Assembly (NCBI GenBank): GCA_019058315.1
Contig: JAHPZH010000001.1
Span: 977,432-1,041,431, forward strand
DNA: 64,000 bases
From: Candidatus Helarchaeota archaeon
GTDB taxonomy: Archaea; Asgardarchaeota; Lokiarchaeia; Helarchaeales; RDOG01
Direction of reading: 5' to 3'
The translations under genes were made by a program, and so were the position numbers. The notes below the pieces were generated by a model. It worked only from the letters and a program-made list of their open reading frames with translations, was not told the origin of the DNA and ran no database searches. Numbering within the stretch: position 1 is the stretch's first letter; each line of letters starts with the position of its first letter. Positions 21,570 through 59,900 of the stretch are shown in pieces.

Positions 21570-22262
21570 ATGGACTTATATGATATTTATGTTATTTACA
21601 AAGGAGGGCAGACAATATTCCATAAGAACTTCAGTACTGTAAAAGTTGATCCTGACCTTGTAACTGCGTTCCTTACAGCAGTTACCAATTTCTCCCAAGA
21701 AGTTCTACCTACTGGAGACCCTCTTCGAATTATTGAAAAAGGTTATTCAAAAATTATAATGTCATATGAAGCATTAATAATGAGCGCTTTAATATGCGGA
21801 TCAAATAATCCAGAGGATGTCGAACAATTAAAAGTAAGAATAGATGATATTGTAAAGGAACTACAAGCACAATATTATCCTATTCTTCGTAATTGGGGAG
21901 GAAAAACTTCAGACTTTATGGGTATGGGGGATGTTATTGATGACCATCTAAAAGATATTCTTAGAATTGCACTCCCTCCACCTTTGGAATTAATGTTCTC
22001 TACTCCTGATAAATTCACATTTACAATTGATGAGAGGGGTCTGAATCTATACAATTCATATTTGAGAAATAATAAGGGCTTTAATGCCTTTTTAGGAAAA
22101 CTGGGATTAGAAATCTCTTGGGTAGATAGAGCTTTAAATGCTTTGAGATCGGGAAAGGTCGGTTTACCGGATTTAGCAAATAAATTAGGCTTGGATTTAC
22201 AAATAACCATCGTTTTAATTAGAGATCTTAAACTACGTGGCTTATTGCTTATGGCATTATAA
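21570..22262 (+). CDS. Longin-like domain protein with a C-terminal winged HTH
   Basis: IYVIYKGGQTIFHKNF...DPDLVTAFLTAVTNFSQEV ... F...Y..L.NW.G....F is typical of Asgard longin domains. The C-terminus LPDLANKLGLD...LIRDLKLRGLL is wHTH-like. Confidence 0.75.
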   Translation: MDLYDIYVIYKGGQTIFHKNFSTVKVDPDLVTAFLTAVTNFSQEVLPTGDPLRIIEKGYSKIIMSYEALIMSALICGSNNPEDVEQLKVRIDDIVKELQAQYYPILRNWGGKTSDFMGMGDVIDDHLKDILRIALPPPLELMFSTPDKFTFTIDERGLNLYNSYLRNNKGFNAFLGKLGLEISWVDRALNALRSGKVGLPDLANKLGLDLQITIVLIRDLKLRGLLLMAL

Positions 22263-32900: not shown

Positions 32901-35900
32901 TTCATCTCTGTCTATAAGAGTGATATCTACAAATGCAGCTGTTCCATAGTAAGTATCTGTTACAAATGAATACTCAGTAGTCACATGTTCAGTCCATAAT
33001 GCTGTATCAATAGATTGTGCAGGATTACCTCCAGCATCATTTTCATCATCATAAGTTACAGTAATTATACTGCCATTATCCACTTGAATTTGGTCTAATG
33101 CATCGTTACTCACCGTCATATTATAACCAAGACTACCAACGAATATACCAGTACTATTACCTGTTTCAGTTAAGGTTACGAGAATTCCTGTTGCATCAAC
33201 ACTGCTTGTAACTTTTATATCGAAAGTATCAATTGCACCTACATCCCTATTCTCATCTTCGTCTGTTAATGTTATGGTTGCATAGTGATTAATTGTTTGA
33301 TACCATGTGTCATCAAATACTGCAACTCCAGTTACGTATTCATTCCATGTTACAGTATCTGTGACGTTTTTAGGCTTTCCTGTAATATCCCATCTATCTA
33401 AGTAGCGAGAAGATACAAATGTATTGTCTTGAACGTGAATGGTATTATTTGATTCCCAACTGCCTAATTTACTGAAATTAAGTTGGGTTGTAAATATGCC
33501 TGAACTTATAGCCGTTTCAGTTAGAGTTATATTAATTCCTGTAGAATCGAGAGTGCTAGTTACGATTACCCAAACTTGATCATAACCGATTTTATTTTCA
33601 TTTGCATCAGAATCAGTTATAGTTATTATTGCGGATTCACCAGTACCATATCCTTCACTATCAAATCCAATCGTTCCGGTTACGGTAACAGTCATATTAG
33701 CATAAGCATAAACATCTGCAGGTGCTCCACTATTTGTATGAACATCATAATAATAAGCAGTAATTATATCACCGTCAGACACGTGAAGTGTGCGGGGAGT
33801 CGTTGCATTCGAACTTGATGCACTCGTGGGCTTAAATACACCAACAAAGATGCCGGTATTAACCCCTGTTTCAGTACATGGAACAATAATCCCTCCGGGA
33901 CTATCACTAGTGGATGTTACGAAAATATTGACAACTTGTATAGTTCCAGAACCTGTATTTAAATCATTATCTGTTACAGTAATTTCTGCAATCTGACCTG
34001 TTCTATATGAAGATGAATTTAATCCAATTGATCCTGTAATTGTTGCAATCCAATAAGCAAAATCTTTTACTCTTGCAGATGCACCAGTTATAGTATATGT
34101 GTCATTATAGATTGCTCTTACTATATCATCATCTTGAGCCCAAATTAAATCTAAAACATCATTACTGCTAGTTGTATTAAATTTGAATGTTCCTTGAAAT
34201 ATACTCGAGTCAGGGAGAGTTTCGGCTAATTGTACCGTTATACCAGTAGGATCACTGGAACTATTAACATTTACAGTAACATAATTTATTGCAGAAGGAT
34301 TCGTGTTTAAATCAATATCTATGACCTCTATTGTAGCCTCGGCATCGGTACCATAGTAATTTAATTCATCTAATGTTATAGTACCAGTATGAGTTTCTCT
34401 CCAATAAGCAGTATCGAGAGAAGTTCCTGGGTTTCCTGTAATTGTATGCGTATCATTATAACGAACTGTAATTAAATCATCATCAAGGGCCAAAATGATA
34501 TCCGCAGGATCATTGCTAGCTGCTGTGGAGAATTCAAAATCACCTTGGAAATTATTGCTATTGATCCCAGTTTCAGTTAATAAAACATTAATTCCTATCA
34601 GATCACTTGCACTCCACACATCAATAGAAACTGTCTGAGGAGTTAATGGATTCGTATTTAAATCAGAATCAGTTACAATTACTGTTGCTATTGCTGCAGT
34701 TCCGTAATAATTCTCAGCATTTAATGCAATACTTCCAGTTTCTGTTTCAATCCATAAAGCAGATTTCTTTGGTCTCGCTGAAGCTCCAGTAACTGTATGA
34801 GTATCATTATAAATTGCCCTTACAGTATCTCCATCTAGAGCCCAAATTAAATCACTTGGATCATCACTTCCCGAGATACTAAACTTGAATGTCCCGGTAA
34901 ATATACCAGTGTTGATATTTGTTTCTGTTAGTTGTACGTTTATTCCAGAATTATCACTGGTACTATTAACATTCACAGTAACATAATTTATTGCTGAAGG
35001 ATTTGTGTTTAAATCAGCATCATTTACTATAACTTGTGCAACTGCAGCGGTTCCATAATAAGTTGTAGAATTTAGATTAATACTTCCTGTAGTAGTTTGC
35101 TCCCAAATCGCACTATCAGATGGTATTGCAGAAGCACCAGTAACAGTATGTGTATCATAATAAATTGATTTAACAGTATTTCCATCAAGTGCCTGAATCT
35201 TATCGTTAATATCATCACTTGGACCTGTAGTAAATTGGAAAGTACCTCTAAATATTGAAGAATTTTGAGGAATAGCTCCTGTTTCAGTTAATATAACATT
35301 TATTCCTATGGAATCAGATGTGCTATTTACTTTTACATTTACTGTTTCGGTTATGGTTGGGTTAGTGTTCAAATCGGCATCAGTAACAGTAATAGTAGCT
35401 ATGGCTGCTGTTCCATAATAGGTTGTCTTATCTAATGTTATATCACCAGTACTTGTTTTTATCCATATAGCAGTATCCGTCTTGTTAGAGGCTGGTCCAC
35501 TTGCGGTATGTGCGTCAAGGTATCTTGCTGTAATTGTATCACCATCAGAAACCCAAATTTCATCATCAATATCACTACTAGAGGAAGTGTCAACATAGAA
35601 ATATCCTTGAAATATACTTGTATTTACGCCAGTCTCATATAATCGGACAGTAATTCCTGGAGAAGGATCCGATGTACTAGTGACTTTAATATCAACTGTT
35701 TGATTTGTTGCTGGATTTGTATTCAAATCAATATCTGTAACAATTATTAGTCCAGTAGCACCTGTTCCATAATAAGTTGTTTGTTCAATATTTATAGTGC
35801 CACTATAAGTCTTTTCCCAAACTGCACTGTCACTTGGTCTTGCAGAGGTTCCAGTAATTGTATATGTGTCGTTATATATTACCATTATATTATGTCCATC

Positions 35901-38900
35901 AAGAACTTTAATTATATCATTGATATCATCACTTGCACCAGTAGTAAATGTGAAGGAACCTGTGAAAATACTGGTATCAGGACCAGTCTCCTCCAAATTA
36001 ACAGTGATGCCAATAGGATCATCCGTACTATTCAGATTCACGTCAACGTCATTTATTACTAGTGGATTAGTATTTAAATCTTCATCTTCTACCGTTATTA
36101 GCGCACTTGCGGCAGTCCCGTAATAGGTTGCTTTATCCAAGGTAATAGTTCCTGTGTCGGTTTCTATCCAAATAGCAGTATCCGACTTGTTTGTGGTTAT
36201 ACCAATTGCGGTATGGGCATCTAGATATATTGCTTTCATAGTATTTCCATCAGCAACTTGAATTTTATCATTAATATCACTGCTAACTATCGTATCAACA
36301 TAAAAATATCCAGTAAATGTGCTTGCATTTAAACTCGTCTCATATAATCGAACAGTTATGCCAGCATTATCACTAGTACTATTAACCTTAATATCTACAT
36401 AATTCGTACTGTAAGGATCTGTATTCAAATCAGCATCTGTAACCGTTACTAGTGCTGAAACACCAGTTCCATAATAAATAGATTCTTGAATATTTATTGT
36501 TCCACTGAATGTTTCATCCCAAGTTGCATCAGTAGTCTGTACAACAGATACTCCCGTTACATCATGTGCATCTGCATATCTAGCAGTAATAATGCTACCA
36601 TCCAATGCATATATAATATCATTGAAATCATCACTTGCGGATTGACTAAATTCTAAAGTACCGATAAATTGACTTGTATTTACATCTGTTTCAACTAATT
36701 GAACCGAAATACCACCAGGAGGCCATGGATCATCAGTGCTCCAAACTCTTACATTAACTGTATCATTATCATACTGATCAATGTTTAAATCAGAATCTAC
36801 TACTGTAATAACCGCGACGGCTGCAGTGCCGAAATAAGTTGAGGCATCGAAATTAATTGATCCTGTAGCTGTTTGGTCCCATATTATATTTTTTACTATT
36901 GTTGCATTTTCTCCAGTGCTGGTATGGATGTCTTCATATATTAAAGTGACATTATCTAAATCAGCAACCTTAATTTTTCTATTAGCAGAATCACTAGCTC
37001 CAGTTGTGAATGTAAAACTTCTTCTAAATTTTTGACTATTATTTGATAGTTCTATTAATTCAATTTGAAAACCTATAGGATCTGAATCACTTGATATATT
37101 TATCCAATAAGATTCTATTAATGAGGGATTTGTGTTTAGATCTGCATCTGTTAATGTAATCCATGCCACAGCTAAACCACCATAGTACATAATTTCATCT
37201 TCTTCATTAGTTTCATGATCATCAATAACCATAGTAGCAGTATAAGTCTTTATCCATTCACCGAGAGCAGTTCTTGTTTGAGGAAGCCCATTAATATCAT
37301 ATTGTTCAGTATATATTGCTGAGATTACATCTCCACCAGTAACTTTAATTAAGTCCAAAGGATCATTACTTGTTCCAGTTGTAAAGTTAAATATTCCTTC
37401 AAATGCTGATGAATTTGTTCCAGTCTCTGTCAAAACAACTTGTATACCGACAGGATCTGCCGTACTTGTGACATTTATAGTCACTGTTTCAGTTACGCTT
37501 GGGTTAGTGTTCAAATCAGGATCGGTAACACGGACTTGAGCATATGAATCAGTTCCATAAAATTCGTCTGGACCAATATAAGTTATAGTCCCAGTCCAAG
37601 TTTTTACCCAACTTGAAGAATTTGATACATAATCAGAAAGTCCAGTTACACTCATTTCATCATTATAATAAACATAAACATTATTTCCATCTTCAATATG
37701 AATTCTTACTGTGACATTACTACTTGCAGTTGATATAAAAGTAAAAGTACCTTGAAATATACCTGAACTACTAGTAGTTTCAGTTAAATTAACATTTATG
37801 AAATCTCCAGAAGAGGTACTATTTACTGTAACCATAAACCACTGTACAGTTGCATCATCTGTATTAACATCTGAATCATAAACAGTAATAGTTGCAGTTG
37901 AATGTCCAAAGTATTCATCAGCATCTAAAATGACTATTCCTGTGACTGTTGCATTCCAAGTAGCTGTATCTGTGTCCGAATCTGGAAAACCAGTTTCATT
38001 CAACGCATCAGTATATGTTGCATAAATCATATCTCCATCTTGAGCCCAAATTATATCATTATCATCGTCACTAGAAGTTAAATTAAATGTGAAGGTACCA
38101 TTAAATATTCCTGTATTGGGACCTGTCTCAGTTAATTGAACTGTAATACTCGAAGGATCTGAATCACTACTTACAATTACATTTACTGTTTGAGATGTTC
38201 CAGGATTTGTATTTAAATCATTATCATTTACTGTGATTACAGCCTCTGCAAGAGTGCCATTATATTGATCATAATCTAAATCAATAGTTCCCGTAATAGT
38301 AGCAATCCATGTTGCCGTATCATTCGGATTATTTGGTACACCATTGGCATTAAATGCGTCAGCATATATTGCTGTAACAACTTCTTGAGGTGCAGCTATT
38401 CCGATTAAATCTGAGCTATCATTACTGAAACCTAGGTTAAATCCAAAAGATCCTGTAAATATTGAAGAGCTTATACTATTTTCAGTAATAATAACTGAGA
38501 TTGGAGTGCCAGTGGAACTTTGAACAGTTATTGAGGACTGTTCAATCGTAGTATTATCTGTATTTAAATCAGCATCTGTAACTGTAACTGTAGCAATATC
38601 TCCAGTTCCAAAATATTGAATTTCATCTAAAGTAATAGTTCCTGTATAATATTTCGTCCAAGTTGCATTTTTAAATGGATGTTTATTAGCTCCAGTTGCA
38701 TCAAGAGTATCGTTATATTCAACTATAACCCATTGAGGTGAGGCATCATCAGTCATACCAATTTGTCTAGATGCATTATTACTACTAGTACCGAATACGA
38801 ACCATCCAGTAAATATACCAGTATCAACTCCTGTTTCGGTTACGGTTAAATTGACCCAGCCTGGTGCATCTTTACTTGTGATGTTTACCCAAGCTATATC

Positions 38901-41900
38901 TATAGATACATCAAATAGATTTAAATCGCTGTCCGTAACTGTAACATACACAGTATATACATATCCCGTATAACTTGTTTTATCTATTTGAATTATTCCA
39001 GTAGTAGATTTACGCCATATAGCTGTATCAATTGGATTTGCTGGATTTCCATCATCGGCATGCTCATCATTATATTGAACTGTAATAGTTCCTTCATCAA
39101 CAACACGAATAATATCAAGAGTGTCATTACTTGTGCCAACATCAGTAAATGTAAAAGTACCTCTAAATTCTCCTGGAGTAGCAACTTCTTCAGTACATTC
39201 TACGGTAATACCAGTAGGATCTGTAGTACTTACTACCGAAATATTAACAGCATCTTGTCCTGGAGTAACATCTAAATCCGAATCAATTACTGTAATTATT
39301 GCAGTCTCACCAGTTCCATAACGATCTTTATTCAGAACTATAGTTCCAGTATAAGTGGCATACCAAATAGCCGTATCAGTTGTACTAACTTGAGCTCCTG
39401 TAATGTCGTGGATATCAATATAAGTAACCGTTACATTATCCCCATCGGAAACATAAATCTCATCAGCAGTATCATTACTTTGAATCTTGCTAAAACTGAA
39501 ATATCCCTGGAAGAGTCCACTATTAAATGCAGTTTCAGTAAGAGTCACCGAAATACCAGTGGCATCACTATCGCTTGTAACATAAATCACTACTGTTTCT
39601 TTCACGCTTGGATTTTGATTCAAATCAGCATCATTAACAGTTACTATAGGACTTTCACCAGTAATATAAGAAACTGCATCAAGATAAATAGATCCAGTAA
39701 CTGTTTCAATCCAAGTTGCGGTATCTGTAGGACTGGCAGAAGCTCCAGAAACATCATGAGCGTCATAATATGTAACTGTTACAATATCATCATCAGTAAC
39801 ATGAATCCAATCATCTATATCACTACTACTCGATGTATTAAAAGTAAAAGTACCTGTGAATATACCAGTTTTAACACCAGTCTCACTAAGTGTGACATTA
39901 ATACCCGTTCCATCAGTATCACTTGTTATAGTTACATTAACAGTATCAATAACAGTGGAATTTTCATTCAAATCTGAATCTGTAACTGTTATTGAAGCAG
40001 CCCCAGTTCCATAGTAAGTGATTTTATCCAATAATACAGAACCGGTAACTGTAGCTATAAAGATTGCAGAATCCGTTACCGTTGCTGGAGAACCAGTTGC
40101 TGTATAAGCATCATTATAGCTTACGGTAACTATTGAACCGTTTACGACTTTAATTTTATGTGCAGCTTGACTACTAGATCCGAATGTAAAGCCGAAGAAA
40201 CCTGTAAAATTACCAGTAGTGGCTCCAGTCTCTGTTAATTCCACGGTTATAGATCCAGCGGCAGGAGCTGTGCTTGATACGGTAATAATAACGGTATCTG
40301 GAGAACCGGATGTATCTAAATCTTCATCAATAACAAATACATTTGGGGATTCTCCCGTAATATATTCCGTTGCATCAAGTTCAATAGTACCTGTATGAGT
40401 CTCAATCCAAGTTGCAGTATCTGTAGGACTGGCAGCAGCACCAGTTACAGTATATTGATCATCATATCTTGCATAAATAGTATCTCCATCAAGAGCCAAT
40501 ATTATGTCCGATCCATCATTGCTAGCAGTCATATTAAATGTGAAGTTACCAGTAAAGATACCAGTATTTACCCCTGTTTCTTGACAGGTTACGTTAATAC
40601 CTCCAGTATCACTGTCACTGGTAACATTGATATTTACAAATTCAATAGCACTAGGGTTAGTGTTCAAGTCTGAATCAGTTACCGTGATTATTGACATGGC
40701 TCCTGTTCCGTAATAAACAGTATCATCTAAAATTATTGTACCTGTCACAGTAGCAGTCCAAATTGCTGTATCGGTTCTATATGATGAAGCTCCTGAAGCT
40801 ATATGAACATCAAAATATCTTATAGTAACTGTATTACCATCTTGAGCCCAGATTTTATCATTTGTATCATCGCTTGGAGATGTGGTCTTGAAACCAAAAG
40901 TTCCAATGAAAATACCTGTCTGTCCTCCTGTTTCATCTAATGTTACATTAATTCCTGAAGAATCACTTGTACTTATTACATTGACATCTATATGATCTAT
41001 AGCTGGAGAAGTATCCAGATCTGGGTCAGTTACATTTATAGTTGCTAAAGCTCCAGTTCCGAAATATTCACTGGCATCGAGATTAACTATACCTGTGTGA
41101 GTTTCTATCCAAACTGCATCATCAGTCTGGCTTGCAGGGGCTCCAGTTAAGGTGTGTTCATCATCATATGTTGCAGTAACTGTATCACCATCTGCGATAG
41201 TAACTCCACCTCCTTGAAATTGGAATGAATCGGTAAATATTCCAGATGTACCAGTAGTTTCTGTTAATATAATAATGATTCCTGTGGGATCACTAGTACT
41301 AGAAATATTTACATTTACTGTATCAGCTCCCCCAGTAATGTTTAGATCGGAATCAATAACAGTTATATCTCCTATTGCTCCAGTTCCATAATAATATTCT
41401 TCATCCCAAGTAATACTACCGGTTACGGTAGCAATCCATGTGGCAGTATCAGTTGTATAACCTGACTTACCAGTAACTCTTCGTGTATCATTATATCGAA
41501 CAGTAATTGTATCTCCATCATTAATAGTAATTGAACCTAGTATTAGAAAATTAAGCTGAAATATACCAGTTGAAGGTCCAGTTTCGGTTAATTCTAATAA
41601 TGTACCAGTAAGATCGCTTGTACTTCTATATGTAATATTAACACTATCTGCTGAACCCGTTGTATCTAAATCCCAATCATTAACAATGACAGTTGCAGTT
41701 GCTGCAGTACCATAGTATGTTTCTTGATTAAGTGCAATTGTTCCTGTATAAGTCTGAATCCATGTTGCAGTATTAGTAATATTGGAGGAAACTCCTGTTG
41801 CTATATGTTCATCCTCATAACGTACAGTAACTGTATCGTCATCAATGGCCCAAATAATATCAGCAGGGTCATTACTAGCTGTTGTTGAAAATTCAAAGGT

Positions 41901-44900
41901 ACCATTAAATATTCCCGTATTGGGACCTGTTTCAGTTAATTGAACAACAATTCCCGAACTATCACTATCACTTGTAACGTAAACGTCAACAGTATCAGCA
42001 CTTCCAGTGACATCAAGATCAGAATCAGTTACGGTAATTTTAGCAACTGCAGCAGTACCATAATAATAACTTGCATTTAATACTACAATTCCTGTATGTG
42101 TAGCTATCCAAGTTGCTGAAGTTTTAGGTCTTGCTGAAGCTCCAGTAACAGTATACGTATCATTATAAATTGCTCTTACCGTATCTCCATCTTGGGCTTC
42201 AATTATATCATTAGGATCATCACTACTAACAGTGCTAAATTTAAATGTTTTTTGAAATATTCCAGTATCTGCTCCAGTTTCTGTTAATCTTACAATAATT
42301 CCTGGAGAATCTGATGAACTATTAACATTAATATCTACATAATTTACGATTGAAGGGTTAGTATTAAGGTCATTATCAGTAACTGTTATTAACGCTTGAG
42401 CTGCGGTACCGTAATAATTTGCTGCATCTAAAATAATTGTACCAGTTACTGTTGCAATCCAAGTAGCTGTATCAGTAGCATTACCAGATAAGCCTGAACT
42501 TTTGTGCTCATCATCATATCTCGCAGTTACTATATCATCATCTATAGCCCAAATCTCATCATCAATATCACTACTACTAGAAGTATCAAAATAAAATTGC
42601 CCTTGAAATACTCCAGTTAAAGATCCAGTTTCGGTTAATTCAACAGTAATACCATAACCATCACTTTCACTCGTAATATTCACATCAACTGAATCAATTC
42701 CAGTTGTAATATCAAGATCTTTGTCATTAACGGTGACATTTGCAATTGCATCGGTCCCATAATAATTTAATTGATTTAAGGTAATAGTTCCGGTTACAGT
42801 AGCTATCCAAATTGCAGAATCTTTTGGGGTTGCAGGAGCACCACCCGCTGTGTGTTCATCATTATATCTTGCCATAGTTGTATCTCCATCTTGGGCATGA
42901 ATAATATCGAGCACATCACTACTTGATGTTTGTGAAAATCTGAAAGTTCCAGTAAATGTAGAAGAATTTACTCCATTTTCTTGTAATGTTACAGTTATTC
43001 CCGGAATATCGATGCTACTATTAACATAAATATTTATAGACTCTTGTGTAAGTGCATCTTGATTCAAATCTGCATCAATTACAGTGACTGTTGCTTCTGC
43101 AGCTGTTCCGAAATATTCTGTGGCATCTAAACTAATTGATCCTGTTGCGGTTTCCACCCATTTAGCTTTATAAGTATGGTTCGCAGCAGGTCCTGTGACT
43201 ATATGTTCATCAAAATAAATTACAGTTACATTATCGTTATCTATTGCTTTAATAATATTACTAGGATCGTTACTTGCACTCTTACTAAAAGTGAAGGTTC
43301 CCCGAAATATCCCAGTTGTAGACCCGGTTTCGGTTAATTGGACGCTAATACCAGTTGAGTCACTCGTACTATTTACATCTACATCTACTGTGTCAGGACT
43401 TCCTGTTGTATCTAAATCAGCATCGGTAACAGTTATTCTAGCAACCACAGCAGTTCCATAGTAAGTAGTTGCATTTAACACAACTGATCCTGTGACAGTA
43501 GCCGTCCAAATTGCTGAATCAGTATCATAATTAGGAGATCCGGTTACATCTCTCGAATCATTATATCTTACTTGAATGGTATCACCATCTGTTGCCCAAA
43601 TAGTATCGGTTCCGCTTGCACTAGTACTAAATGAAATATATTTTGTGAAAATTCCTGTTGAGGGACCAGTTTCTGTTAAAGTAACAATAATTCCACTAGA
43701 ATCTAAAGTACTATTTACATTAACTGCAACTGAATCAGCACTGCCAGTTGTATCTAAATCCCAATCAGTAACTGTTATTAATGCTTGAGCTCCAGTACCA
43801 TAATAATTGGCAGAATCAAATTGCACATTGCCTGTAAACGTTTCAATCCAAGTAGCTGTATCATACACATCAACTGTTTGACCTGTAACATCATATTGAT
43901 CCTCATATTTTACAGTCACAACGTCTTGATCACTTACACTTAGATAATCTAATGGATCATTACTAGTTCCTGTTGTAAAATCAAAAGTTTCTGTAAAGAT
44001 GCCAGTATTCACACCAGTTTCAGTAAGTGTTACCCAAATTCCTGTGGTATCAGAATCACTATAAACGTTAACAGCTACAGAATCAAGTAAAGTTGGTTGA
44101 ATATTTAAATCGAAATCGTTAACTGTTATAGACGCAGTGGTTAATCCATAATATTGAGTTTTATCCAAAGAAACAGAACCACTAACTGTTGCAATCCATG
44201 TTGCAGAATCTGTTCTCACAGATGGAAAACCAGTAACATCCTTCAAATCATTATATATAACTTTTGTAGTGTTTCCATCGAGTACTTTAATAACATCTAG
44301 AGGATCATTACTACTAGATGTACTAAATGTAAAATTACCTACAAATACTCCCGTATCTGCCCCTGTTTCTGTAAGCAAGACATTAATACCGCTTGAATCG
44401 TCTGAACTATTTACTTTTACTGAAACAGTTTCAATTATTAATGGTTCTTCATTTTCATCAGAATCAGTGAGCGTAATAGTTGCTAAAGCTTGAGTGCCGT
44501 AATAGTTAGATTTGTCAAGGTTAATAATTCCAGTTACAGTTGCAATCCAAGTAGCAGTCTCAGTTACATTTTCTGCAGTTCCACCAACACCATGAGGATC
44601 AGTATAAATTACCCAAATTGTGGCACCATCGGCAATCCATATTCTCTGATAATTCACACTTGATGAAGTTGAAAAGTTGAAGTTTCCGGTAAATATACCT
44701 GTATTTGGACCAGTTTCAGAACAATTTATGTTTATTCCCACTCCATCTTCAGTGCTATTCACTAAAATTGTTACAGTTTCTGTAACTCCAGGTAATACGT
44801 TCAAATCTACATCTGTAATAGTAACATATGCTGTATCAGCAGTTCCATAATATTCGTTAGTATCCAGATCTAAAACACCAGTTACATATTGAGTCCAAGA

Positions 44901-50900: not shown

Positions 50901-53900
50901 TTTAGACTCGTCATAAAGAGCCCATACTTCACTTGCATTTGCAACTTTAATAATATCATTTGCATCGTTACTAGCTGCAGTGCTAAAATATAATGTTCCA
51001 GTAAATACCCCTGTATCAAGTCCTGTTTCATTACATTCGACTCCAATACCAATTAAATCCACAGAACTATTTACGTCTATATTTATTGTATCATATTGAT
51101 CATCATGTTGATTCTCATCAAAATCTTCAACCGTAATTGTGGCAATAGCTGATGTGCCATAATAATAAAAAGCATTTAAAAGAATTGAGCCACTTACATA
51201 AGTATACCAAATAGCGGTGTCATTTACATAAGCTGGTAAACCAGTAGCATTATTTGCATCAAAATAACGGGCTATTATGGAACTTCCATTCGTAGCTTCA
51301 ATAATATCGGAATCATCATTACTGCTGGAACCAAAAGTAAACGTTCCTTGGAAGATCCCAGTATTTGGTCCAGTTTCTGTACAAGTTACATTAATACCAC
51401 TTGGATCATCCGTACTCGTAACATTAACTTTAACACTTTCCGCAGCTCCTGGTAATTGATTTAAATCTGGATCAGTTACTGTAAGGTGTGCAGTTCTCCC
51501 ACTGCTATATGTTGCATCGTCTAATACACAAGTTCCGCTTGCAGTTTGAGTCCAAGATGCGGAATCGTTATGGACATCTGCAAGACCAGTATAATTATGA
51601 GCTTCAAAATACCATGCAAAAACAGTATCTCCTAATGAATTGACCCAAATTAAATCATTAGTATCATCACTTGCTGTGATACTAAACGAGAATGTACCAG
51701 TAAATACTCCCGTATTTACACCAGTTTCTGTACAAGTAACATTAATTCCCGTGGAATCTTGAGTGCTATTTACAGTAGCATTAACAGATTGTTTCGAAGT
51801 GGCTGCTGTATTCAAATCAGCGTCCGTAATAGTAATGGTTGCAGTTTCATAGGTTCCGTAAGATGATTGATCCAAATCGAGAGAACCAGTTTCTGTTGCA
51901 TCAAATGTAGCCGTATCAATTGGATTAGCAGAAGTGCCCGTAACTGTATATTCATCATGATAAGTTACAGTTACAGCATCTCCATCTTGAACATAAATAC
52001 GATCTAAAACATCATCACTTGGAGAAGTTAGTTTAAAGGTGAAATTTCCTGTAAATACTCCAGTTGATGCTCCGGTTTCAGTTAGTGTGACATTAATACC
52101 TATTGCATCAGAATCGCTAGTAATTGTAACATTAACTTGATCAGGTGAACCAGAAATATCTAGATCCGAATCTGTAACATTAATAAATGCGGTTTCACCA
52201 GTAATATAATCTTCTTTATCCAGACTAACAGAACCTGTAATAGTCGCATTCCATGTGGCTGTATCTGTGGGAGCATTTGGATAGCCATTATAATCATATT
52301 CATCATCATAGCGGGAAGTAATTATATCACCATCTACCGCTTGAATTGAAGTCCCTGGAACGCTTGCTCCAGAGGTAAATCCAAATATTCCAGTAAATAT
52401 ATGAGTTGTTGCTCCAGTTTCAGTTAGTAATATAAAAATTCCATAACCATCACTTGTACTCGTAACATTAACCGAGACTGTATCTGGACTAGCAGTTGTA
52501 TCTAAATCAAGATCATCCACAGTAATTCTAGCCTTAGCAGCAGTACCAAAATATTCAGTTGCATTTAATTGAATTGTACCAGTATGAGTCTGTTCCCATG
52601 TTGCTGTATCTGTATCATAAATATCTGCACCAGATTCATCATGTTCATCATAATATTGAACTGTAACAGTATCACCATCTGACACTTCTATTATGTCTAA
52701 ATTGTCATTACTAGTAGTTTTACTAAAATTAAGTAACCCTTGAAATATACCAGTGGTTGCCCCAGTTTCAGTTAGCGTAACATTAATACCCGTTGTATCA
52801 GAATCACTAGTAACTGTAACATTAATTTGATCAACACTACTTGAAATATCTAAATCGGTATCATTCAATGTAATAACAGCTGTCTGGTTTGGATAATATA
52901 CATTGTTATCAAAATAAACATCTCCTGTCATTGTCTCAATCCAAATAGCTTGTTTGTATGGATTTGCGCTTTCACCTGTTTCATCATGTACATCTGTATA
53001 ATATGCTCTTATATTTGATCCATTTAGTGCATAAATTAAATCATTCGTATCGTCACTTGGTGAAGTTATTTTAAATCCAAAAGTGCCATTAAATATACCT
53101 GTATTTACTCCTGTCTCAGTAAGGGTTACATTAATCCCCGTACTGTCTTGAGAACTAGTAACTTTTATAATAATATTATCAATACCTGAAGGATTTTCAT
53201 TCTCATCAAAATCATTAACTGTAAAAAGTGCAATAGCAGCAGAACCATAATAAATCGTGTTATTTAATGATAGAACTCCAGTAATTGTTTCAATCCAAGT
53301 CGCAGAATCAGAAGTACTTCCTGGAGGACCAGTTATTGTATGTGCATCATCATATCTGGCAGTAATACTATCATCATCAACTACTTGGATCATATCTGCT
53401 GTATCATTAGAAGTTACATTCACATAAAATGTCCCTGAGAAGATACCAGTGGTAGGTCCAGTTTCGGTTAATTGAACTTGTATACCAGCTCCATCACTGG
53501 AACTTGTGACATTTATAGTAGTTGTATCCGTACCAGAGGTGGTATCTAGATCTGAATCAGTTACTGTTGCAGTAATTTCAGCATCAGTACCAAAGTATTC
53601 TGTTTGATCTAATGCTATTGTTCCAGTAACTGTTTCAACCCATGTAGCAGTATCAGTTGGAGATGCTGAAGCTCCTGTTAAAGTATGTTCATCATCATAA
53701 CGGACTGTGATAGTATCCCCATCTAATGCTTTAATGATATTTGCTGGGTCATTACTACTACCTTTAGTAAAAATAAATGATCCATTAAATATACCTGTGT
53801 TGTCTCCAGTTTCAGTTAATGGAACACTTATTCCAATAGAATCACTATCACTTGTAACATTTACTTCTACAGTATCAGGACTGCCAGTTACATTAAGATC

Positions 53901-56900
53901 TGCATCGACAACAGTAATATAAGCAGTAGCTCCTGTTCCATAATAATAATCCGCGTCTAATTCAATCGTACCAGTAACTGTTGCTATCCATGTAGCTGTA
54001 TCAGTATGATTTGCAGAAGCACCACTTAAAGTATGTTCATCCTCATAACGAACAGTAATGATGTCTTCGTCAGCAACTAATATTTTATCATCAGGATCAC
54101 TGCTTGCAATTGTACTAACAATAAAAGTTCCATTAAATATGCCAGTAGTGGCTCCCGTCTCAGTTAATTGGACGCTAATACCGGTTGAGTCACTTGTACT
54201 AGTAACATAAACGTCCACTGTATCTGCACTACCAGTTGTATCCAAATCTGAATCTGTTACTGTGATAATAGGAATCGCTCCAGTTCCATAGTATGTATCT
54301 ACATCTAAAATTATTGTTCCGGTTACAGTAGCTATCCAAGTAGCACTATCTTTTGGGTTAGCTGAGGAACCCGTAACAGTATATGTATCGTTATATATCA
54401 CCATAACAGTATCGTCATCAGTAACCCAGATTTTATCTAATGCATCATCACTGGGTGCAGTAGTTTTAAATTCAAAATGACCAGTAAATATTCCAGTAGA
54501 CCCACCTGTTTCTGTTAATTGTACTTCTATACTATTTGGATCTGATGTGCTGTTTACTTTAACGTCAACCGTATCAGAACCTCCAGTAGTGTCTAAATCT
54601 TCATCTTCAACAGTGATATAAGCTGTAGCTCCAGATCCATAATAAGTTAATTTATCTAAATCTACCGTACCTGTGTAAGTTTTTATCCAAGTAGCAGTAT
54701 CTTTTGGTTTTGCAGGAGTTCCTTCTGCGGTTCGTGAATCATTATAAATTACCATAGTAGTATTGCCATCTTGAGCCCAAATTTTATCAGCAGGGTCATT
54801 GCTAGGTCCACTTTCTGTAAAAGTAAACTTTCCGGTAAATGTGTTTGTATTTACATCTGTTTCGGTTAATCGAACAATAATACCAGGTTGAGGATCTTTT
54901 GAACTATTTACATTTACATCAATAGTCTCAGCTACACTAGGATTGATATTCAAATCTGCATCAATAACAGTAATTGTTGCTTCTGCAGCGGTTCCATAAT
55001 AAGATGTTGCATCCAATTCAATAGTACCAGTATGAGTCTCGATCCAAGTTGCAGATTTCTTTGGTCTTGCTGAAGCTCCGGTTACGGTATAAGTATCATT
55101 ATATATGGTCCTAACAGTATCATCATCTTGAGCCCAAATAATATCACTAGGATCATTACTACTGCTTGTACTGAAGTAAAAATTCCCTTTAAATATCCCA
55201 GTATTAGAACCAGTTTCAGTTAAACGAACAATAATCCCCTCATTATCGCTTGTACTATTAACATTTACATCAACATAATCAGCTGATCCTGAGGTGTCTA
55301 AATCAGAATCTTCTACTGTAATTTCAGCAACTACATCAGTTCCGTAATAAGTCGTAGCATTTAAATTTATAGTCCCTGTCACCGTAGCTTCCCAAGTAGC
55401 TGAATCTTTAGGTCGTGCTGATGCGCCAGAAGCAGATCGGGTATCATTATAAATAACCATAGTTGTATTTCCATCCTGTGCCCAGATTTCATCACTAGGA
55501 TCATTGCTTCCAGAGGTACTGAACGTAAATGTCCCAGTGAAGGTACTCTGATTTACCCCAGTTTCAGTCAATTCAACAATAATTCCCGAAGCATCTAACG
55601 AGCTATTCACATTTACATCAACAGTTTCTATTACACCTGGATTTGTATTTAAATCAGCATCTGTTACTGTAATAGACGCCATCGCATCTGATCCATAATA
55701 TATACCAGCATCTAAAACAACCGTTCCAGAATAAGTTTTAATCCAAGTTGCAGTATCAGTCGGACTTGCAGAAGCCCCAGAGGCTGTATGTTCATCATCA
55801 TATCTTACAGTTATAGTATCGTCATCTTGAACATATATACGATCTAAAATATCATCACTTGGAGCAGTTAATTTAAAGGTGAAAGTACCCGTGAAGATTC
55901 CAGTTGAACCACCAGTTTCATCTAATTGAACACTAATTCCTGCTCCATCACTGGTGCTCGTAACGTTTACATTTACTGAATCTGTCCCTCCTGTTGTGTC
56001 TAAGTCAGAATCAATTACAGTTATTGTTGCTTCTGCACCAGACCCATAATAAATTGTTGCATCAAGATCAACAGATCCAGTAACAGTTGCTTCCCAAGTA
56101 GCAGTATCAGTGGTAGTAACAGGATTACCATACATATTTTTTGCATCACTATATCTTGCAGAAATAGTATCGCCATCGACAGCCTCTATTCTATCCAAAG
56201 GATCACTTGTTGTAGTGCCAAAAGAAAAATTCCCATAGAAAATCCCAGAATTTACAGTAGTCTCCCATAATAAAACATTAATTCCGCTAGGATAAGGATC
56301 ACTTGTACTCCAGACTTGTATAGAAACAGATTGTTTAGTAGCATCGTTAGTATTTAAATCAGGATCAGTAACATTGACATATGCTCTCGCAGCTGTTCCA
56401 TAATACGTAGCTGCATCCAATTCGATTGTCCCTGTATAAGTTTGAGTCCAATCAGCAGTATCAGAATGGTTTTGTGCTAAACCTGTTACATTATGTTCAT
56501 CATAATAACGTACAGTAACAATATCACCATCAGTTACATTAATTTCATCACCTGGATCATCACTTCCTAAAGTTGTAAAAGTAAATGTTCCAGTAAATAT
56601 TCCAGAATCCACTAAAGTTTCATCACATTGAACTTGAATTCCAGAAGTATCTGTAGTGGAAGTTACATAAATATAAACACTTTGTGTGGTTCCAGGGTCT
56701 GTATTTAAATCAGAATCTGTAACAGTCACAGTGGCAGTGCTCAATCCATAATATTCGAGTTCATCTAATTCGATTGAACCGGTAACAGTAGCTGTCCAGA
56801 TTGCAGTATCTGTAGGTTGAGCAGGTGTTCCTAAAGCAGTTCTTGCATCACTATATCTTGCGGTGATAGTATCATCAGGAGATACTTTAATAATATCATT

Positions 56901-59900
56901 ACTATCATCAGTAGTAGTTGTACTAACTGAGAATGTATTTCTAAACACACTGGTATTAACATTAGTTTCAGTTAATTCTACAGTAATTCCTGTAGGATCA
57001 CTATTACTCCATACACTAATATTAACTGTTTCATTGGCAAAAGCATCTCTATTTAAATCTTGATCCGTAACAGTAACTGTAGCCACTGCACCAGTACCAA
57101 AATATTCAGTTTCATCTAAATCAATTATGCCAGTATATGTTTTTATCCAAATACAATAAACATTTCTATCAACACCAATTCCATTAATATCTTTATCTTC
57201 CTCAAAAAGAACCCATACTTCACTTGCATTAGCAACTTTAATAATATCACTTGTATCACTACTTGCTGCTGTACTAAAATAAAATATTCCAGTAAATATC
57301 CCTGTATCAAGACCAGTTTCATTAACTGTTACTTGTATACCACTGAGATCTTCCGTACTATTTACTTTAACTTCAAATGTATTATAAGATGTGGGGTTTG
57401 TATTTTCATCGAAGTCATTAACAGTAACTGTAGCTGAAGCTGATGTTCCATAATAGTAGAAAGCATTTAATTCAATAGTTCCACTCACGTATTGATACCA
57501 TATTGCTGTATCAATTTTATCTTCAGGTAATCCGGTTGCATTTTTTGCATCATAATAACGAGCTGTTATCACACTACCATTAGTGGCTTCAATAATATCA
57601 GAATCATCATTACTACTGGTACCAAAAGTAAATGTTCCTTGGAAGATTCCAGTATTTGGTCCGGTTTCTGTACAAGTTACATTAATACCACTCGGATCAT
57701 CATCACTCGTAACATTAATTTTAACACTTTCTGAAGCTCCTGGTAACTGATTTAAATCTGGATCAGTTACTGTTATGTGTGCAGTTCTCCCGGTACTATA
57801 AGTTGCATCGTCTAATACACAAGTTCCGCTTGCAGTTTGAGTCCAAGATGCAGAATCGTTATGTACATCTGCAAGACCAGATGCATTATGAGCTTCAAAA
57901 TACCATGCAAAAATAGTATCTCCTGCTGAATTGACCCAAATTAAGTCATTAGGATCATCACTTGCAGTAATATTAAATGAGAATGTACCAGTAAATACTC
58001 CCGTATTTACACCAGTTTCTGTGCAAGTAACATTAATTCCCGTGGAATCTTGGGTGCTATTTACCGTAGCATTTACAGATTGCTTCGAAGTTACTGCAGT
58101 ATTTAAATCAGCGTCTGTAATAGTAATGGTTGCAGTTTCATAAGTTCCATAAGATGCTTGATCTAAATAAAGAGAACCCGTGACTGTTGCATCAAAAGTG
58201 GCTGTATCTATTGGATCTGCGGAATCTCCAGACTCAGTATATTCATCGTGGTAAGTTACAGTGACAGTATCTCCGTCTGATACTTTAATATATTCTAAGT
58301 CTTTACTATCGGTTAAATTGAATTGGAAAGTTCCGATAAATATGCCAGTATTTGCTCCAGTCTCAGTTAATGTTACATAAATACCAGAAGGATATGAAGT
58401 ACTAGTTACTGTAACATTAACTTGATCAAGGCCACCAGTAGTGTCTAAATCCGAATCGGTAACGTTAACAATTGCTGTCTCACCTGTAATATAATAATCT
58501 TTATCTAAGTCAACAGAACCTGTAATCGTTGCATTCCAAGTTGCAGTATCAATGGGAAATGCAGGATTACCATTTACATCATAAGAATCATTATATATTG
58601 CATAGATTATATCACCATCTGCAGCTTCGATTTTTCCTCCTCCAGAAGTTCCCGTTGTAAAGCCAAATGTATTAGTAAATATTCCAGTTGTCGGACCTGT
58701 TTCAGTAAGTATAACATATATTCCCGTACTATCGCTTGTGCTATTTATTTTCACTATTACTGTATCTGGAGTGCCTTTAACATCTAAATCCGAATCTGTT
58801 ACTGTAACAGATGCAATAACATCAGTCCCAAAATATTCAGTCGAATTTAGTTCGATATATCCTGAAACAGTTTGGTACCATGTTGCTGTATCATAATGAT
58901 TTGTAGGGTTTCCAGTAGCAGTATAAACGTCATAGTAATCAACAGTAACTGTATCACCATCCGAGACTAATATTTCATCTAATGGATCGCTGCTGGTTAC
59001 ATTATCGAATGTAAAGGTGCCTATAAATACACCAGTATTAGGACCAGTTTCTGTACATGTTACATTTATTCCAGTTAGATCCGAATCGCTTGTAACAATC
59101 ACATCAACTACATCATTTCCACTTGTGACATCTAAATCAGAATCCGTAACATTAATGGTTGCAGTTTCTCCAGTATAATATATTGTATCATCTAGCACTA
59201 CATCACCCGTAACAGTTGCATTCCAAGTCGCAGAGTCAGTAACATTTGCAAAGAATCCTTGTTGGTTGTGTTCATCGCTGTATGTGGCATTTATTAAATC
59301 ACCATCAGCAGCTTCAATTTTTCCACTGCCACTGGCTCCTGTTGTAAATCCAAAAGTTCCGATAAATATACCTGAATGAAAATCAGTTTCAGTACATTTT
59401 ACAGAGATACCCGAATTGTCGCTATCACTTATTACACTAATATAAACATCATCTGCAAGCCCTGAGGTGTCTAAGTCCATATCAGTAACATTTATTTGTG
59501 CAATAGCACCAGTTCCAAAGTATGCTGTAGCATTTAGAGTTATAGTACCCGTTACAGTTTCTATCCAAGTGGCAGATTTCTTAGGTCTTTTAGGATCTCC
59601 TGCAGAATCATAAGTATCATTGTAAATAGCTCGTACAATATCATTATCTGTTACTTGAATTGAGGTCCCTGGAACGCTTGCTCCAGTAGTAAATCCAAAA
59701 TATCCTTCAAATATACTAGAATTCGCATTCAATTCTGTTAAAGTTATAATAATACCACTATTATCAGATGTACTATTCACATTTACATTAATTGTTTCCT
59801 GAGTTCCCTCATCTTGATTTAAATCTCCATCAGTAACTGTAATTTTAGCACTTGTTCCAGTACCAAAATATTGAGTACTATTTAATGAAATAGACCCCGT

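What the first reader, a model, noticed from the sequence alone, without database searches (positions are those of the whole stretch)
34041..59213. Titin-like 18-domain super-repeat inside the Ig array
Seen, numbering the repeats 1-94 by hand: variant types recur every 18 units. Repeats 8/26/44/62/80 (YYTGET, YYPNQT, YITGET, YITGES, YRTGQI) start at 59213, 52931, 46631, 40397 and 34040, giving spacings of 6282, 6300, 6234 and 6357 nt. Repeats 10/28/46/64 all have YITGE; 11/29/47/65 have YGT.E; 15/33/51/69 have Y(Y/F)G(L/H)(S/T)(T/S)A. The register slips after repeat 80. Known: titin has 7- and 11-domain super-repeats that act as a molecular ruler. Inference: either large 6.3-kb block duplications, or a selected period of roughly 70-80 nm (supercoil turn, partner spacing or staggered bundling).
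Basis: partly seen in the sequence, partly recalled or inferred. Interest (0 to 1): 0.85.

Follow-up and report, generated by a model that had tools for sequence, protein, structure and literature searches.

The report
18-domain higher-order repeat, giant archaeal protein
A 13,700-residue surface protein of an Asgard (Helarchaeota-like) archaeon carries 94 consecutive Ig-like domains organised in blocks of 18, a pattern best explained by old 6.3-kb block duplications kept in register by gene conversion, not by a demonstrated titin-style ruler.

Summary
The minus-strand ORF (window 23913-63998, 13,746-codon open frame in the genome) holds 97 copies of a ~117-aa domain, 94 of them contiguous. 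Period 18 is the only outlier in a period scan.

The whole-domain lag-18 signal comes almost entirely from two stretches: r8-24 vs r26-42 (55-91% aa identity, baseline 44%) and r44-47 vs r62-65. Lags 36 and 54 show only in slow markers: a one-residue indel at phases 1, 3, 4, 5 and 8, class-specific loop motifs, and clustering of unit types by phase.

Synonymous sites are saturated in most in-register pairs. A ~0.7-kb patch (r11-12/r29-30) is the exception. This points to ancient blocks with later in-register gene conversion.

Other arrays of this domain family have periods of 4, 2, 7 or 1, and this gene also carries a separate 4 x 415-aa module. Charge and glycosylation sequons show no lasting 18-unit periodicity.

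No orthologue with this array was found, so the "steps of 18" test could not be run. The ruler idea is unsupported but not excluded. The domain is an Ig-like sandwich homologous to the Nitrosopumilus S-layer protein and has no Pfam match.

The parts
23913..63998 (-). Giant ORF, 13,361 codons inside the window. Its 5' end lies 385 codons beyond the window end. The open frame is 13,746 codons in the genome and 13,734 aa from the first ATG, which is followed by a signal-peptide-like N-terminus.
28809..61700 (-). Contiguous array of 94 ~117-aa Ig-like repeats (r1-r94). Every unit is acidic (net charge -4 to -22, total -1203). The array holds 285 N-x-S/T sequons.
   Evidence: fold
59277..61700 (-). 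r1-r7, upstream of the super-repeat. No 18-unit register to any block. Contains two-unit duplicates r3/r5 and r4/r6.
52995..59276 (-). Super-repeat copy S1 (r8-r25, 6282 nt).
46695..52994 (-). Super-repeat copy S2 (r26-r43, 6300 nt). In register with S1 over r8-24/r26-42: 69% nt overall, in-register Z-sum 17.1.
40461..46694 (-). Super-repeat copy S3 (r44-r61, 6234 nt). Related to S1/S2 only through the indel pattern, loop motifs and unit-type phase.
34104..40460 (-). Super-repeat copy S4 (r62-r79, 6357 nt). In register with S3 only over r62-65.
32349..34103 (-). Start of a fifth, slipped copy (r80-r84). Marker units fall at r80, r81 and r84 rather than r80, 82, 83, 84 and 87.
57552..58247 (-). 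r11-r12, one arm of the youngest in-register patch. 87-91% nt and 90-91% aa identity to r29-r30; pS 0.34 and 0.26 against a baseline of 0.635; exact runs up to 50 nt.
51261..51956 (-). r29-r30, the other arm of the youngest patch.
45303..46694 (-). r44-r47, the S3 arm of the S3/S4 in-register patch (55, 77, 79 and 61% aa identity to r62-65).
39069..40460 (-). r62-r65, the S4 arm of that patch.
24228..29159 (-). Membrane-proximal second super-repeat: four ~400-420-aa modules, each starting with one copy of the 117-aa repeat (r94-r97). The modules are 42-57% identical to each other.
23985..24047 (-). C-terminal hydrophobic membrane anchor, preceded by a Pro-rich stalk and followed by a short basic tail.
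   Evidence: read from the sequence
61701..63998 (-). Non-repeat N-terminal (distal) region with no Pfam match. It is 27% identical to the N-terminal part of a 6707-aa metagenomic protein that lacks the repeat.

Best explanation
The 18-unit period is a higher-order repeat. An ancestral block of 18 already diverged Ig-like domains (about 6.3 kb) was copied in tandem at least four times by unequal recombination or replication slippage.

Once two copies existed, misaligned pairing between them could only add, remove or convert sequence in steps of one block. That explains why four blocks are exactly 18 units long.

The copies are old. Most in-register pairs are saturated at synonymous sites and sit at baseline protein identity. 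Positional homology survives only in slow characters: a one-residue loop indel, class-specific loop motifs, and which unit subtype sits at which phase.

Later in-register gene conversion, or a younger duplication, re-homogenised neighbouring blocks. This gives the AA'BB' pairing (S1 with S2; the head of S3 with the head of S4), an identity gradient that peaks at units 4-5 of S1/S2, and a young ~0.7-kb patch.

The protein itself is inferred to be a type-I-anchored, heavily glycosylated, strongly acidic rod of Ig-like domains. It would reach roughly 0.4 micrometre if extended and would carry a distal head away from the cell. The number of domains sets its reach, and the 18-unit period is a record of how it grew.

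Shown here: the period, the pairings, the divergence pattern, the fold, and the absence of periodicity in bulk properties. Inferred: the recombination mechanism, the order of events, and the rod-like shape and function.
For: (1) Period 18 is the only outlier among periods 2-40. Lag 18 has a summed Z of 11.4.

(2) Block-by-block register scan: S1-S2 Z-sum 17.1 at shift 0 and at most 4 elsewhere. S3-S4 5.4 at shift 0. S1/S2 against S3/S4 give only broad peaks of 2-3.5. S0 and S5 show none.

(3) DNA identity by unit between S1 and S2 runs 0.61, 0.63, 0.72, 0.87, 0.91, 0.71-0.74, 0.67-0.69, then down to 0.56. This gradient around units 4-5 is what conversion tracts give. Between S3 and S4 the values are 0.60, 0.77, 0.77, 0.68 and then baseline.

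(4) The pS baseline is 0.635 +/- 0.061. In-register pS is 0.26 (r12-30), 0.34 (r11-29), 0.42 (r15-33) and 0.49-0.55 for r10, 13, 14, 16 and 45, and saturated elsewhere. pN stays at 0.17-0.32 across S1-S2 against a baseline of 0.377. This indicates DNA-level common descent or conversion followed by purifying selection.

(5) Deep register. The one-residue indel lies at phases 1, 3, 4, 5, 8 in S1, S2 and S3, and at 1, 3, 4, 8 in S4 (p <= 0.003 at lags 18, 36 and 54). The maximum-likelihood tree groups head-phase units of all blocks into two clades and recovers 12 lag-18 sister pairs. A head/tail phase label on a de-duplicated set needs 9 changes against 16.4 expected.

(6) Block growth with other periods is usual in this domain family: period 4 in seven arrays (lag-4 identity 0.66-0.75 against a base of ~0.4), and periods 2, 7 and 1 in others. 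The same gene has a separate 4 x ~415-aa module.

(7) The pattern is not an assembly artefact. The copies differ by 31% in DNA, and independently built contigs of the source run cover 39300-59299 with no mismatches, breaking only at the near-identical r11-12/r29-30 patches.
Against: - Four consecutive blocks have kept exactly 18 units, although the gene shows local two-unit duplications (r3/5, r4/6, r73/75, r74/76).
- There is a possible register conflict. r48 is the closest relative of r11/r29 (57%, tree support 100/86), yet r47 carries their YG-T motif. This could mean unit gain and loss compensated within S3, which a purely neutral history does not predict.
- r46-r64 keep 79% protein identity with saturated synonymous sites (pS 0.62, pN 0.11), so some positions are under strong unit-specific constraint.
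- Copy-number variation in steps of 18, the direct signature of this mechanism, could not be observed.
- The shuffle p-values ignore relatedness and neighbour similarity. Shifting the phase label gives 9-17 changes, so the phase effect is real but not sharp.
Confidence: 0.7

Rival explanations
1. Selected structural super-repeat (titin-style). Specialised 'head' domains recur every 18 Ig-like domains (about 70-80 nm) because a periodic partner, staggered bundling or a supercoil turn requires that spacing. Selection, not history, keeps the blocks at 18.
For: - Four blocks of exactly 18 units persist despite saturated synonymous divergence.
- Class-specific loop motifs and the indel pattern survive where the rest of the domain has drifted to baseline.
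- Head-phase units form distinct clades. They keep the ancestral loop length seen in distant family members and hold most of the single Cys residues.
- r46/r64 have a very low pN with saturated pS.
- The three-domain model is confident across both linkers (pLDDT 96, pTM 0.76), which is compatible with a stiff rod on which a spacing could matter.
Against: - In-register whole-domain identity between S1/S2 and S3/S4 is at baseline, and the peak is broad (+/-2 units). In titin, same-position domains are more alike than neighbours in all copies (established knowledge).
- Charge, basic or acidic residue counts, sequons and unit length show no autocorrelation at lags 36 or 54, and at most 0.27 at lag 18.
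- The register slips by three units in the fifth copy, and r1-7 and r85-94 are outside it.
- Related arrays use periods of 4, 2, 7 or 1.
- With only ~55% DNA identity between units, neutral stasis of block length is expected anyway.
Confidence: 0.15
2. There is only one true block event. S1/S2 is a single ~17-unit tandem duplication, and r62-65 is a short conversion or copy of r44-47. The apparent five-fold periodicity of the markers is then partly coincidence among a few old-type units.
For: - Outside the two strong stretches the lag-18 Z-sum is only 1.9, while lag 20 gives 3.0.
- S2-S3 in-register identities average about 0.49 against about 0.46 for the surrounding matrix.
- Class 1 units (r8, 26, 44, 62, 80) do not form a clade.
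Against: - Five of five indel positions coincide between S1 and S3. That is about 1 in 2,400 once the first is used as anchor (my calculation).
- YG-T at phase 4 in four blocks, YS- at phase 5 in three, and Y(Y/F)-G(L/H) at phase 8 in four blocks plus r84.
- Phase-8 units of S1, S2, S3, S4 and r84 share one clade, and r15/r33/r69 group together with 100/67 support.
- A 4-unit conversion exactly 18 units away itself presupposes older homology at that lag.
Confidence: 0.12
3. Assembly artefact: a shorter array was inflated by mis-joining of repeats.
For: Tandem repeats are a common source of assembly error. The source-run contigs break at r11-12 and r29-30.
Against: - The blocks differ at 31-42% of DNA positions, so they cannot be collapsed or inflated copies of one sequence.
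- Independent contigs of 23.6, 6.1 and 10.5 kb match the window with no differences across S1-S3.
- The reading frame stays open for 13,746 codons.
Confidence: 0.02

Closest known systems
Titin A-band super-repeats (7-domain D-zone, 11-domain C-zone) and nebulin 7-module super-repeats
   Same: A giant protein made of ~100-residue beta-sandwich domains, in which domain subtypes recur at a fixed multi-domain period. The three-domain model suggests a rod-like chain.
   Different: Titin mixes Ig and FN3 domains in a fixed order. Its same-position domains are conserved in every copy and across vertebrates, and its period matches the 43-nm thick-filament repeat (established knowledge). Here there is one domain type, only one block pair is similar along its length, the register is lost in the fifth copy, and no partner or orthologue is known.
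Higher-order repeats of tandem DNA (for example alpha-satellite HORs), generated by unequal crossing-over and homogenised by conversion
   Same: A multi-unit period in which in-register units of neighbouring blocks are more alike than adjacent units. Neighbouring blocks are most similar, and patches of near-identity occur.
   Different: This array is coding and under purifying selection (pN well below pS). It is far more diverged (58-69% nt between blocks) than active satellite HORs. Copy-number polymorphism has not been observed.
Nitrosopumilus maritimus S-layer protein NmSLP (PDB 8c8k and related; PMC11153153)
   Same: The repeat is homologous in sequence (profile E = 7.6e-25, best on residues 1501-1592, with weaker matches along the chain) and in fold (TM 0.75, rmsd 1.7 A, 27% identity). 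Both are strongly acidic, glycosylated archaeal surface proteins built of Ig-like domains.
   Different: NmSLP has nine Ig-like domains and forms a hexagonal lattice. This protein has 97 copies in one chain plus a membrane anchor, which does not fit a lattice subunit of that kind. No charge gradient or lattice evidence was examined here.
Giant repeat adhesins of bacteria (for example Acinetobacter Bap; PMC4647330) and giant proteins of Asgard archaea (PMC8813620, Extended Data Fig. 7)
   Same: Very long surface proteins built of arrays of 80-120-aa Ig-like modules of several subtypes. Proteins above 3,000 aa are already recorded in Asgard genomes.
   Different: The domain family is different and has no Pfam model. 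An 18-domain period of this kind is not mentioned in the parts of those two papers that I read (a term search and an outline only).

Membership tests
Higher-order tandem repeat produced by block duplication or unequal recombination | In-register units of different blocks are more alike than adjacent units | tested here: met
   S1-S2 in-register identities are 55-91% against 45% at lag 1. For S3-S4 this holds only in r44-47/r62-65.
Higher-order tandem repeat produced by block duplication or unequal recombination | The similarity extends to synonymous sites (descent or conversion at DNA level, not protein-level convergence) | tested here: met
   pS is 0.26-0.55 in r10-16/r28-34 and in r45/63, against a baseline of 0.635 +/- 0.061. 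It is saturated in the other pairs.
Higher-order tandem repeat produced by block duplication or unequal recombination | Blocks of equal unit number with shared slow markers in every copy | tested here: met
   There are four blocks of 18 units. The indel marker recurs at lags 18, 36 and 54 (p <= 0.003), and the motifs agree.
Higher-order tandem repeat produced by block duplication or unequal recombination | Copy number varies among strains in steps of one block | not testable with these tools
   Only short contigs (0.3-0.8 kb) of a 90-95% identical relative were found. No orthologous array turned up.
Titin-type functional super-repeat (molecular ruler) | Fixed order of domain subtypes within each period | tested here: met
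   'Head' subtypes sit at phases 1-8 in S1-S4. The pattern is less sharp than in titin.
Titin-type functional super-repeat (molecular ruler) | Position-specific conservation across all copies exceeds similarity between neighbours | tested here: not met
   S1/S2 against S3/S4 in-register identity is about baseline, with a broad +/-2-unit peak.
Titin-type functional super-repeat (molecular ruler) | The period is conserved in orthologues | not testable with these tools
   No orthologue with this array was found in 40 relatives, 250 genomes of the phylum, genome and metagenome contig scans, or the protein collections.
Titin-type functional super-repeat (molecular ruler) | A periodic partner structure of matching spacing | not testable with these tools
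   This needs imaging or interaction data.
Ig-like domain family shared with the N. maritimus S-layer protein | Beta-sandwich fold superposable on an NmSLP domain | tested here: met
   AF2 pLDDT 91.9 with seven strands. Foldseek to 8c8k_A: E = 2.9e-7, TM 0.75, rmsd 1.7 A.
Ig-like domain family shared with the N. maritimus S-layer protein | Significant sequence-profile match, including the DxDxN and (T)ETGxxTGxF motifs | tested here: met
   hmmsearch E = 7.6e-25, with motifs aligned in several NmSLP domains. D46, D48, E78 and F86 are invariant in the array.
Any Pfam-A domain family | Match above the gathering score | tested here: not met
   A four-repeat query had no Pfam hit at E <= 0.01. Only Big_7 matched, in the C-terminal modules.

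The most novel reading that the evidence does not exclude
The 18-domain period is functional. Every ~75 nm along a stiff, ~0.4-micrometre glycoprotein rod on an Asgard archaeon, a cluster of ancestral-type, Cys-bearing 'head' domains forms a docking or cross-linking site. The protein would then act as a periodic scaffold or spacer for a surface coat or for cell-cell contacts, making it a prokaryotic counterpart of the titin and nebulin rulers.
Probability: 0.12. Interest if true: 0.8.

Novelty: new member of a known kind. Interest (0 to 1): 0.4.

Why it matters
This is a clean, well-resolved example of how a prokaryotic gene can grow to 41 kb. Growth went by copying multi-domain blocks rather than single domains, and the copies then stayed in register through conversion.

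It also defines an uncatalogued Ig-like surface domain: no Pfam model, yet about 4,600 proteins in public data. The domain links an Asgard giant protein to the thaumarchaeal S-layer protein.

If the period were shown to be selected, it would be the first ruler-like super-repeat outside eukaryotic muscle proteins. It would also bear on how Asgard archaea organise their unusual cell surfaces.

As it stands, the periodicity is best read as history. It should not be cited as evidence of a ruler.

Tried and rejected
1. Orthologue test ('steps of 18').
- The repeat profile gave no match at E <= 1e-10 in 40 relatives: 1 of the same family, 6 of the same order, 33 of the same class.
- The N-terminal region found nothing in genome contigs and nothing among longer proteins.
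- Among proteins of 5,500-17,500 aa it found one 6,707-aa metagenomic protein (27% identity), which has none of these repeats.
- The r44-51 query found nothing in metagenome contigs.
- A 250-genome phylum sample gave only weak domain-level hits. The three genomes followed up, including one with a reported 12,627-codon frame, lack the repeat.
- My fetch of that frame recovered only a 3,352-aa ORF of a different ~100-aa repeat, and I dropped it.

2. The best hit of the 1.84-billion-protein search (P0001, 20 repeats) is a ~35% identical protein with a different, glycine-rich C-terminal repeat region. It is not an orthologue.

3. Population variation.
- Three runs of a second sediment study hold 0.3-0.8-kb contigs at 90-95% identity over most of 39300-59299. 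None bridges a block boundary.
- Bins 53974-57308 had little or no cover. This proves nothing.
- The 'joints' listed for the source run have short sides (20-63 nt). I read them as cross-matches between repeats, not as deletions.

4. Periodic charge stripes, sequon density, Cys, Trp, Pro and unit length were tested for lag-18/36/54 autocorrelation. Only weak lag-18 values (<= 0.27) appeared, attributable to the S1-S2 pair.

5. My first dN/dS table had a codon-offset error for units whose N-terminus was trimmed. It was recomputed correctly, and only one search is used.

6. Coordinates of the models are not returned, so neither the rise per domain nor the positions of the invariant acidic residues at the domain interface could be measured.

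Full report
**What is there.** The window's minus strand carries one open frame from 23913 to beyond the window end.
- In the genome the open frame is 13,746 codons. The first ATG gives 13,734 aa, starting with a basic-then-hydrophobic, signal-peptide-like N-terminus.
- The C-terminus has a Pro-rich stalk, a hydrophobic anchor (window 23985-24047) and a short basic tail.
- Flanking genes are housekeeping: a DRG-type GTPase, prolyl-tRNA synthetase and beta-oxidation enzymes.
- The GTPase is 81% identical to that of a Candidatus Helarchaeota MAG. The host is therefore an Asgard archaeon of that lineage, with a 5.8-Mb genome in 12 contigs.

**The repeat.** An HMM iterated on the protein itself finds 97 copies of a ~117-aa unit. 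Of these, 94 are contiguous and 3 are spaced ~416 aa apart near the C-terminus.
- The unit has no Pfam match.
- AlphaFold2 with the 93-row self-alignment gives a seven-strand sandwich (pLDDT 91.9).
- Its best structural match is an Ig-like domain of the Nitrosopumilus maritimus S-layer protein (TM 0.75, rmsd 1.7 A). A profile search confirms sequence homology (E = 7.6e-25). That protein is an acidic, glycosylated array of nine Ig-like domains (PMC11153153).
- A three-domain model is confident through both linkers (pLDDT 96.3, pTM 0.76). This fits a stiff chain, though I could not measure its geometry.
- Every unit is acidic (net -4 to -22, -1203 in total), and the array holds 285 sequons.
- The domain family is widespread: 4,568 proteins at E <= 0.001 among 1.84 billion representatives. 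Four shorter paralogues lie in the same genome.
- The family was not found in 40 relatives of the host at E <= 1e-10.

**Checking the observation.**
- Baseline identity between units is 44%. Lag 18 averages 50% over all pairs. Within r1-80 it is 53% against 46.4 +/- 1.0% at neighbouring lags (z = 7).
- In a scan of periods 2-40, period 18 is the only clear outlier.
- After correcting for how consensus-like each unit is, lag 18 has a summed Z of 11.4. The next largest values are lag 2 (6.0) and lag 20 (3.8).
- For 24 of the 94 units, the nearest relative lies exactly 18 units away.

**Where the signal sits.** A block-by-block register scan shows that whole-domain similarity is concentrated in two places.

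| Comparison | Result |
|---|---|
| S1 (r8-25) vs S2 (r26-43) | Z-sum 17.1 at shift 0; a clean diagonal from r8/26 (55%) through r11/29 and r12/30 (90-91%) to r24/42 (55%) |
| S3 (r44-61) vs S4 (r62-79) | Z-sum 5.4, all from r44-47/r62-65 (55, 77, 79, 61%) |
| S1/S2 vs S3/S4 | broad peaks of 2-3.5 spread over +/-2 units |
| r1-7 and r80-94 | no signal |

- Outside the two strong stretches the lag-18 Z-sum is 1.9.

**Evidence for a deeper 18-unit register.** Three slower characters carry it.
- *Indel.* A one-residue deletion in the loop after the conserved Tyr occurs in r8, 10, 11, 12, 15; r26, 28, 29, 30, 33; r44, 46, 47, 48, 51; r62, 64, 65, 69; and r80, 81, 84. Co-occurrence at lags 18/36/54 is 15/11/6 against 4.0/3.1/2.1 expected (p <= 0.003). 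S2 copies S1, but the five-of-five coincidence between S1 and S3 is independent. It is roughly 1 in 2,400 once the first position is used as anchor (my calculation).
- *Motifs.* The motif next to the indel is class-specific: YI-TGE at phase 3, YG-T.E at phase 4, YS- at phase 5, Y(Y/F)-G(L/H)(S/T)(S/T)A at phase 8.
- *Tree.* A maximum-likelihood tree recovers 12 lag-18 sister pairs. It places the head-phase units of all blocks in two clades, and the phase-8 units of S1-S4 plus r84 fall in one of them. On a set stripped of the recent duplicates, a head/tail phase label needs 9 changes against 16.4 in shuffles. Shifted labels give 9-17, so the effect is real but not sharp, and the shuffle p-value overstates it.
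- In distant family members the shorter loop is the usual state. The 'variant' units therefore keep the ancestral form, and the common units carry an insertion.

**Age and mechanism.** The blocks are old, with younger patches of in-register exchange.
- Block-to-block DNA identity is 69% for S1-S2 and 58-60% for every other pair.
- Along S1-S2 it rises from 0.61 to 0.91 at units 4-5 and falls back to 0.56. Along S3-S4 it is 0.77 in units 2-3 and baseline elsewhere.
- The proportion of synonymous differences has a plateau of 0.635 +/- 0.061. In-register values are 0.26 (r12/30), 0.34 (r11/29), 0.42 (r15/33) and 0.49-0.55 for a few neighbours and r45/63, and saturated elsewhere.
- pN stays at 0.17-0.32 across S1-S2 against 0.377 at baseline.
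- Hence the youngest exchange is a ~0.7-kb patch with exact runs up to 50 nt.
- The gradients are what nested in-register conversion tracts produce. A 4-unit conversion exactly 18 units away presupposes older homology at that lag.
- All copies are under purifying selection, so the domains are in use.

**Is 18 special?** Four lines of evidence say no.
- Other long arrays of the same domain family show strong periods of 4 (seven proteins, lag-4 identity 0.66-0.75 against ~0.4), 2, 7, or unit-level homogenisation. Neither of the two arrays with more than 40 units shows a period of 18. Some of these proteins may be related to one another, so they are not independent cases.
- The same gene ends with a separate four-fold ~415-aa multi-domain module, 42-57% identical between copies.
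- Two-unit duplicates and an alternation of two loop variants give a lag-2 signal.
- Charge, basic and acidic residue counts, sequons, Cys and unit length have autocorrelations of at most 0.27 at lag 18 and about zero at lags 36 and 54.

Block duplication with an arbitrary period is thus the normal way these arrays grow. I found no physical property that repeats every 18 units beyond what common descent gives.

**What keeps the ruler idea alive.**
- Four blocks have stayed at exactly 18 units through saturated synonymous divergence.
- r48, not r47, is the closest relative of r11/r29, although r47 carries their motif. This hints at unit turnover within S3 without a change of length.
- r46/r64 combine saturated pS with pN of 0.11.
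- Head-phase units hold most of the single Cys residues.

None of this is decisive. With units only ~55% identical in DNA, unit-level unequal recombination should be rare, so neutral stasis of block length is expected.

**The test I could not run.** No orthologous array was found anywhere.
- Searches that found none.
- A relative at 90-95% nucleotide identity exists in three sediment metagenomes of a second study, but only as contigs of 0.3-0.8 kb.
- Contigs of the source run, built independently, match the window without a mismatch across S1-S3 and break only at the r11-12 and r29-30 patches. Together with 31-42% DNA divergence between blocks, this rules out an assembly artefact.

The selected-period half is not supported and remains untested.
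- I file the feature as a higher-order repeat of 18 Ig-like domains in a giant, anchored, glycosylated Asgard surface protein. It is a new member of a known kind.
- Interest is moderate. It would be much higher only if the period proved to be conserved or matched by a partner.
- Other first-stage notes on this stretch reported the neighbour pairing of blocks and the patchy near-identical DNA. My analysis agrees with both.

Noticed in passing
window 28809-61700 (-), all units: The 117-aa repeat is an uncatalogued domain family. It has no Pfam hit, yet 4,568 proteins match at E <= 0.001 among 1.84 billion representatives. It also shows clear sequence and fold homology to the Nitrosopumilus maritimus S-layer protein. 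D46, D48, E78 and F86 are invariant in all units (DxDxN and TETGxxTGxF motifs), which might form a cation site.
   Followed up: partly
window 24228-29159 (-): A second, independent super-repeat sits next to the membrane: four ~400-420-aa modules, 42-57% identical. Each starts with one copy of the 117-aa repeat, followed by other beta domains (Big_7 hit).
   Followed up: partly
window 34000-56000 (-), tails of the blocks: Two-unit alternation. A one-residue indel separating 'DLDTTGS-' units from 'DLNTNPSxx' units alternates in the block tails (lag-2 co-occurrence p = 0.004; lag-2 summed Z 6.0). Two-unit duplicates are also seen: r3/5, r4/6, r18/20, r73/75 and r74/76.
   Followed up: partly
window, column ~75 of units r1, 7, 8, 11, 12, 15, 29, 30, 31, 33, 35, 48, 49, 61, 65, 80, 89: A single Cys in the strand before the invariant Glu (V-T-C-T-E-T-G) occurs in 17 units, mostly at head phases of the blocks. 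r12 and r30 have a second Cys. No function was tested.
   Followed up: no
G000:C3 near 122000-124300, 795200-798200 and 622900-626700; G000:C9 near 93000-96000: Four shorter paralogues in the same genome (open frames of 1164-1950 codons, 6-9 repeats). For three of them a library protein of matching length (P0002, P0003, P0008) was found, each with a signal peptide. P0002 and P0003 share a C-terminal tail motif (KELASLSPKEREEFL). Some of the paralogue units match specific giant-protein unit types (r12/30 type at 66%, r46/64 type at 61%), so the unit subtypes predate or were exchanged with the giant array.
   Followed up: partly
window 61701-63998 (-) and 385 codons beyond the window end (L009): The distal non-repeat head has no Pfam match. 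The part beyond the window end looks FN3-like by eye. The head is 27% identical over 90% of its length to the N-terminal part of a 6,707-aa metagenomic protein that has no copy of the repeat. Other first-stage notes propose a clan-CD protease dyad here, which I did not test.
   Followed up: no
window 39300-59299: Three sediment metagenomes from a different study hold short contigs 90-95% identical to this gene, so a close relative of the organism and its giant gene exists elsewhere.
   Followed up: partly
window 39390-39977 (+): A 195-codon ORF lies on the opposite strand inside the giant gene. It is most likely a chance open frame in repeat DNA.
   Followed up: no
window 15405-18545 (-) and 21570-22262 (+): Two neighbouring ORFs (1046 aa and 230 aa) have no Pfam match. 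The 1046-aa ORF lies in the most AT-rich part of the window (GC 0.23).
   Followed up: no
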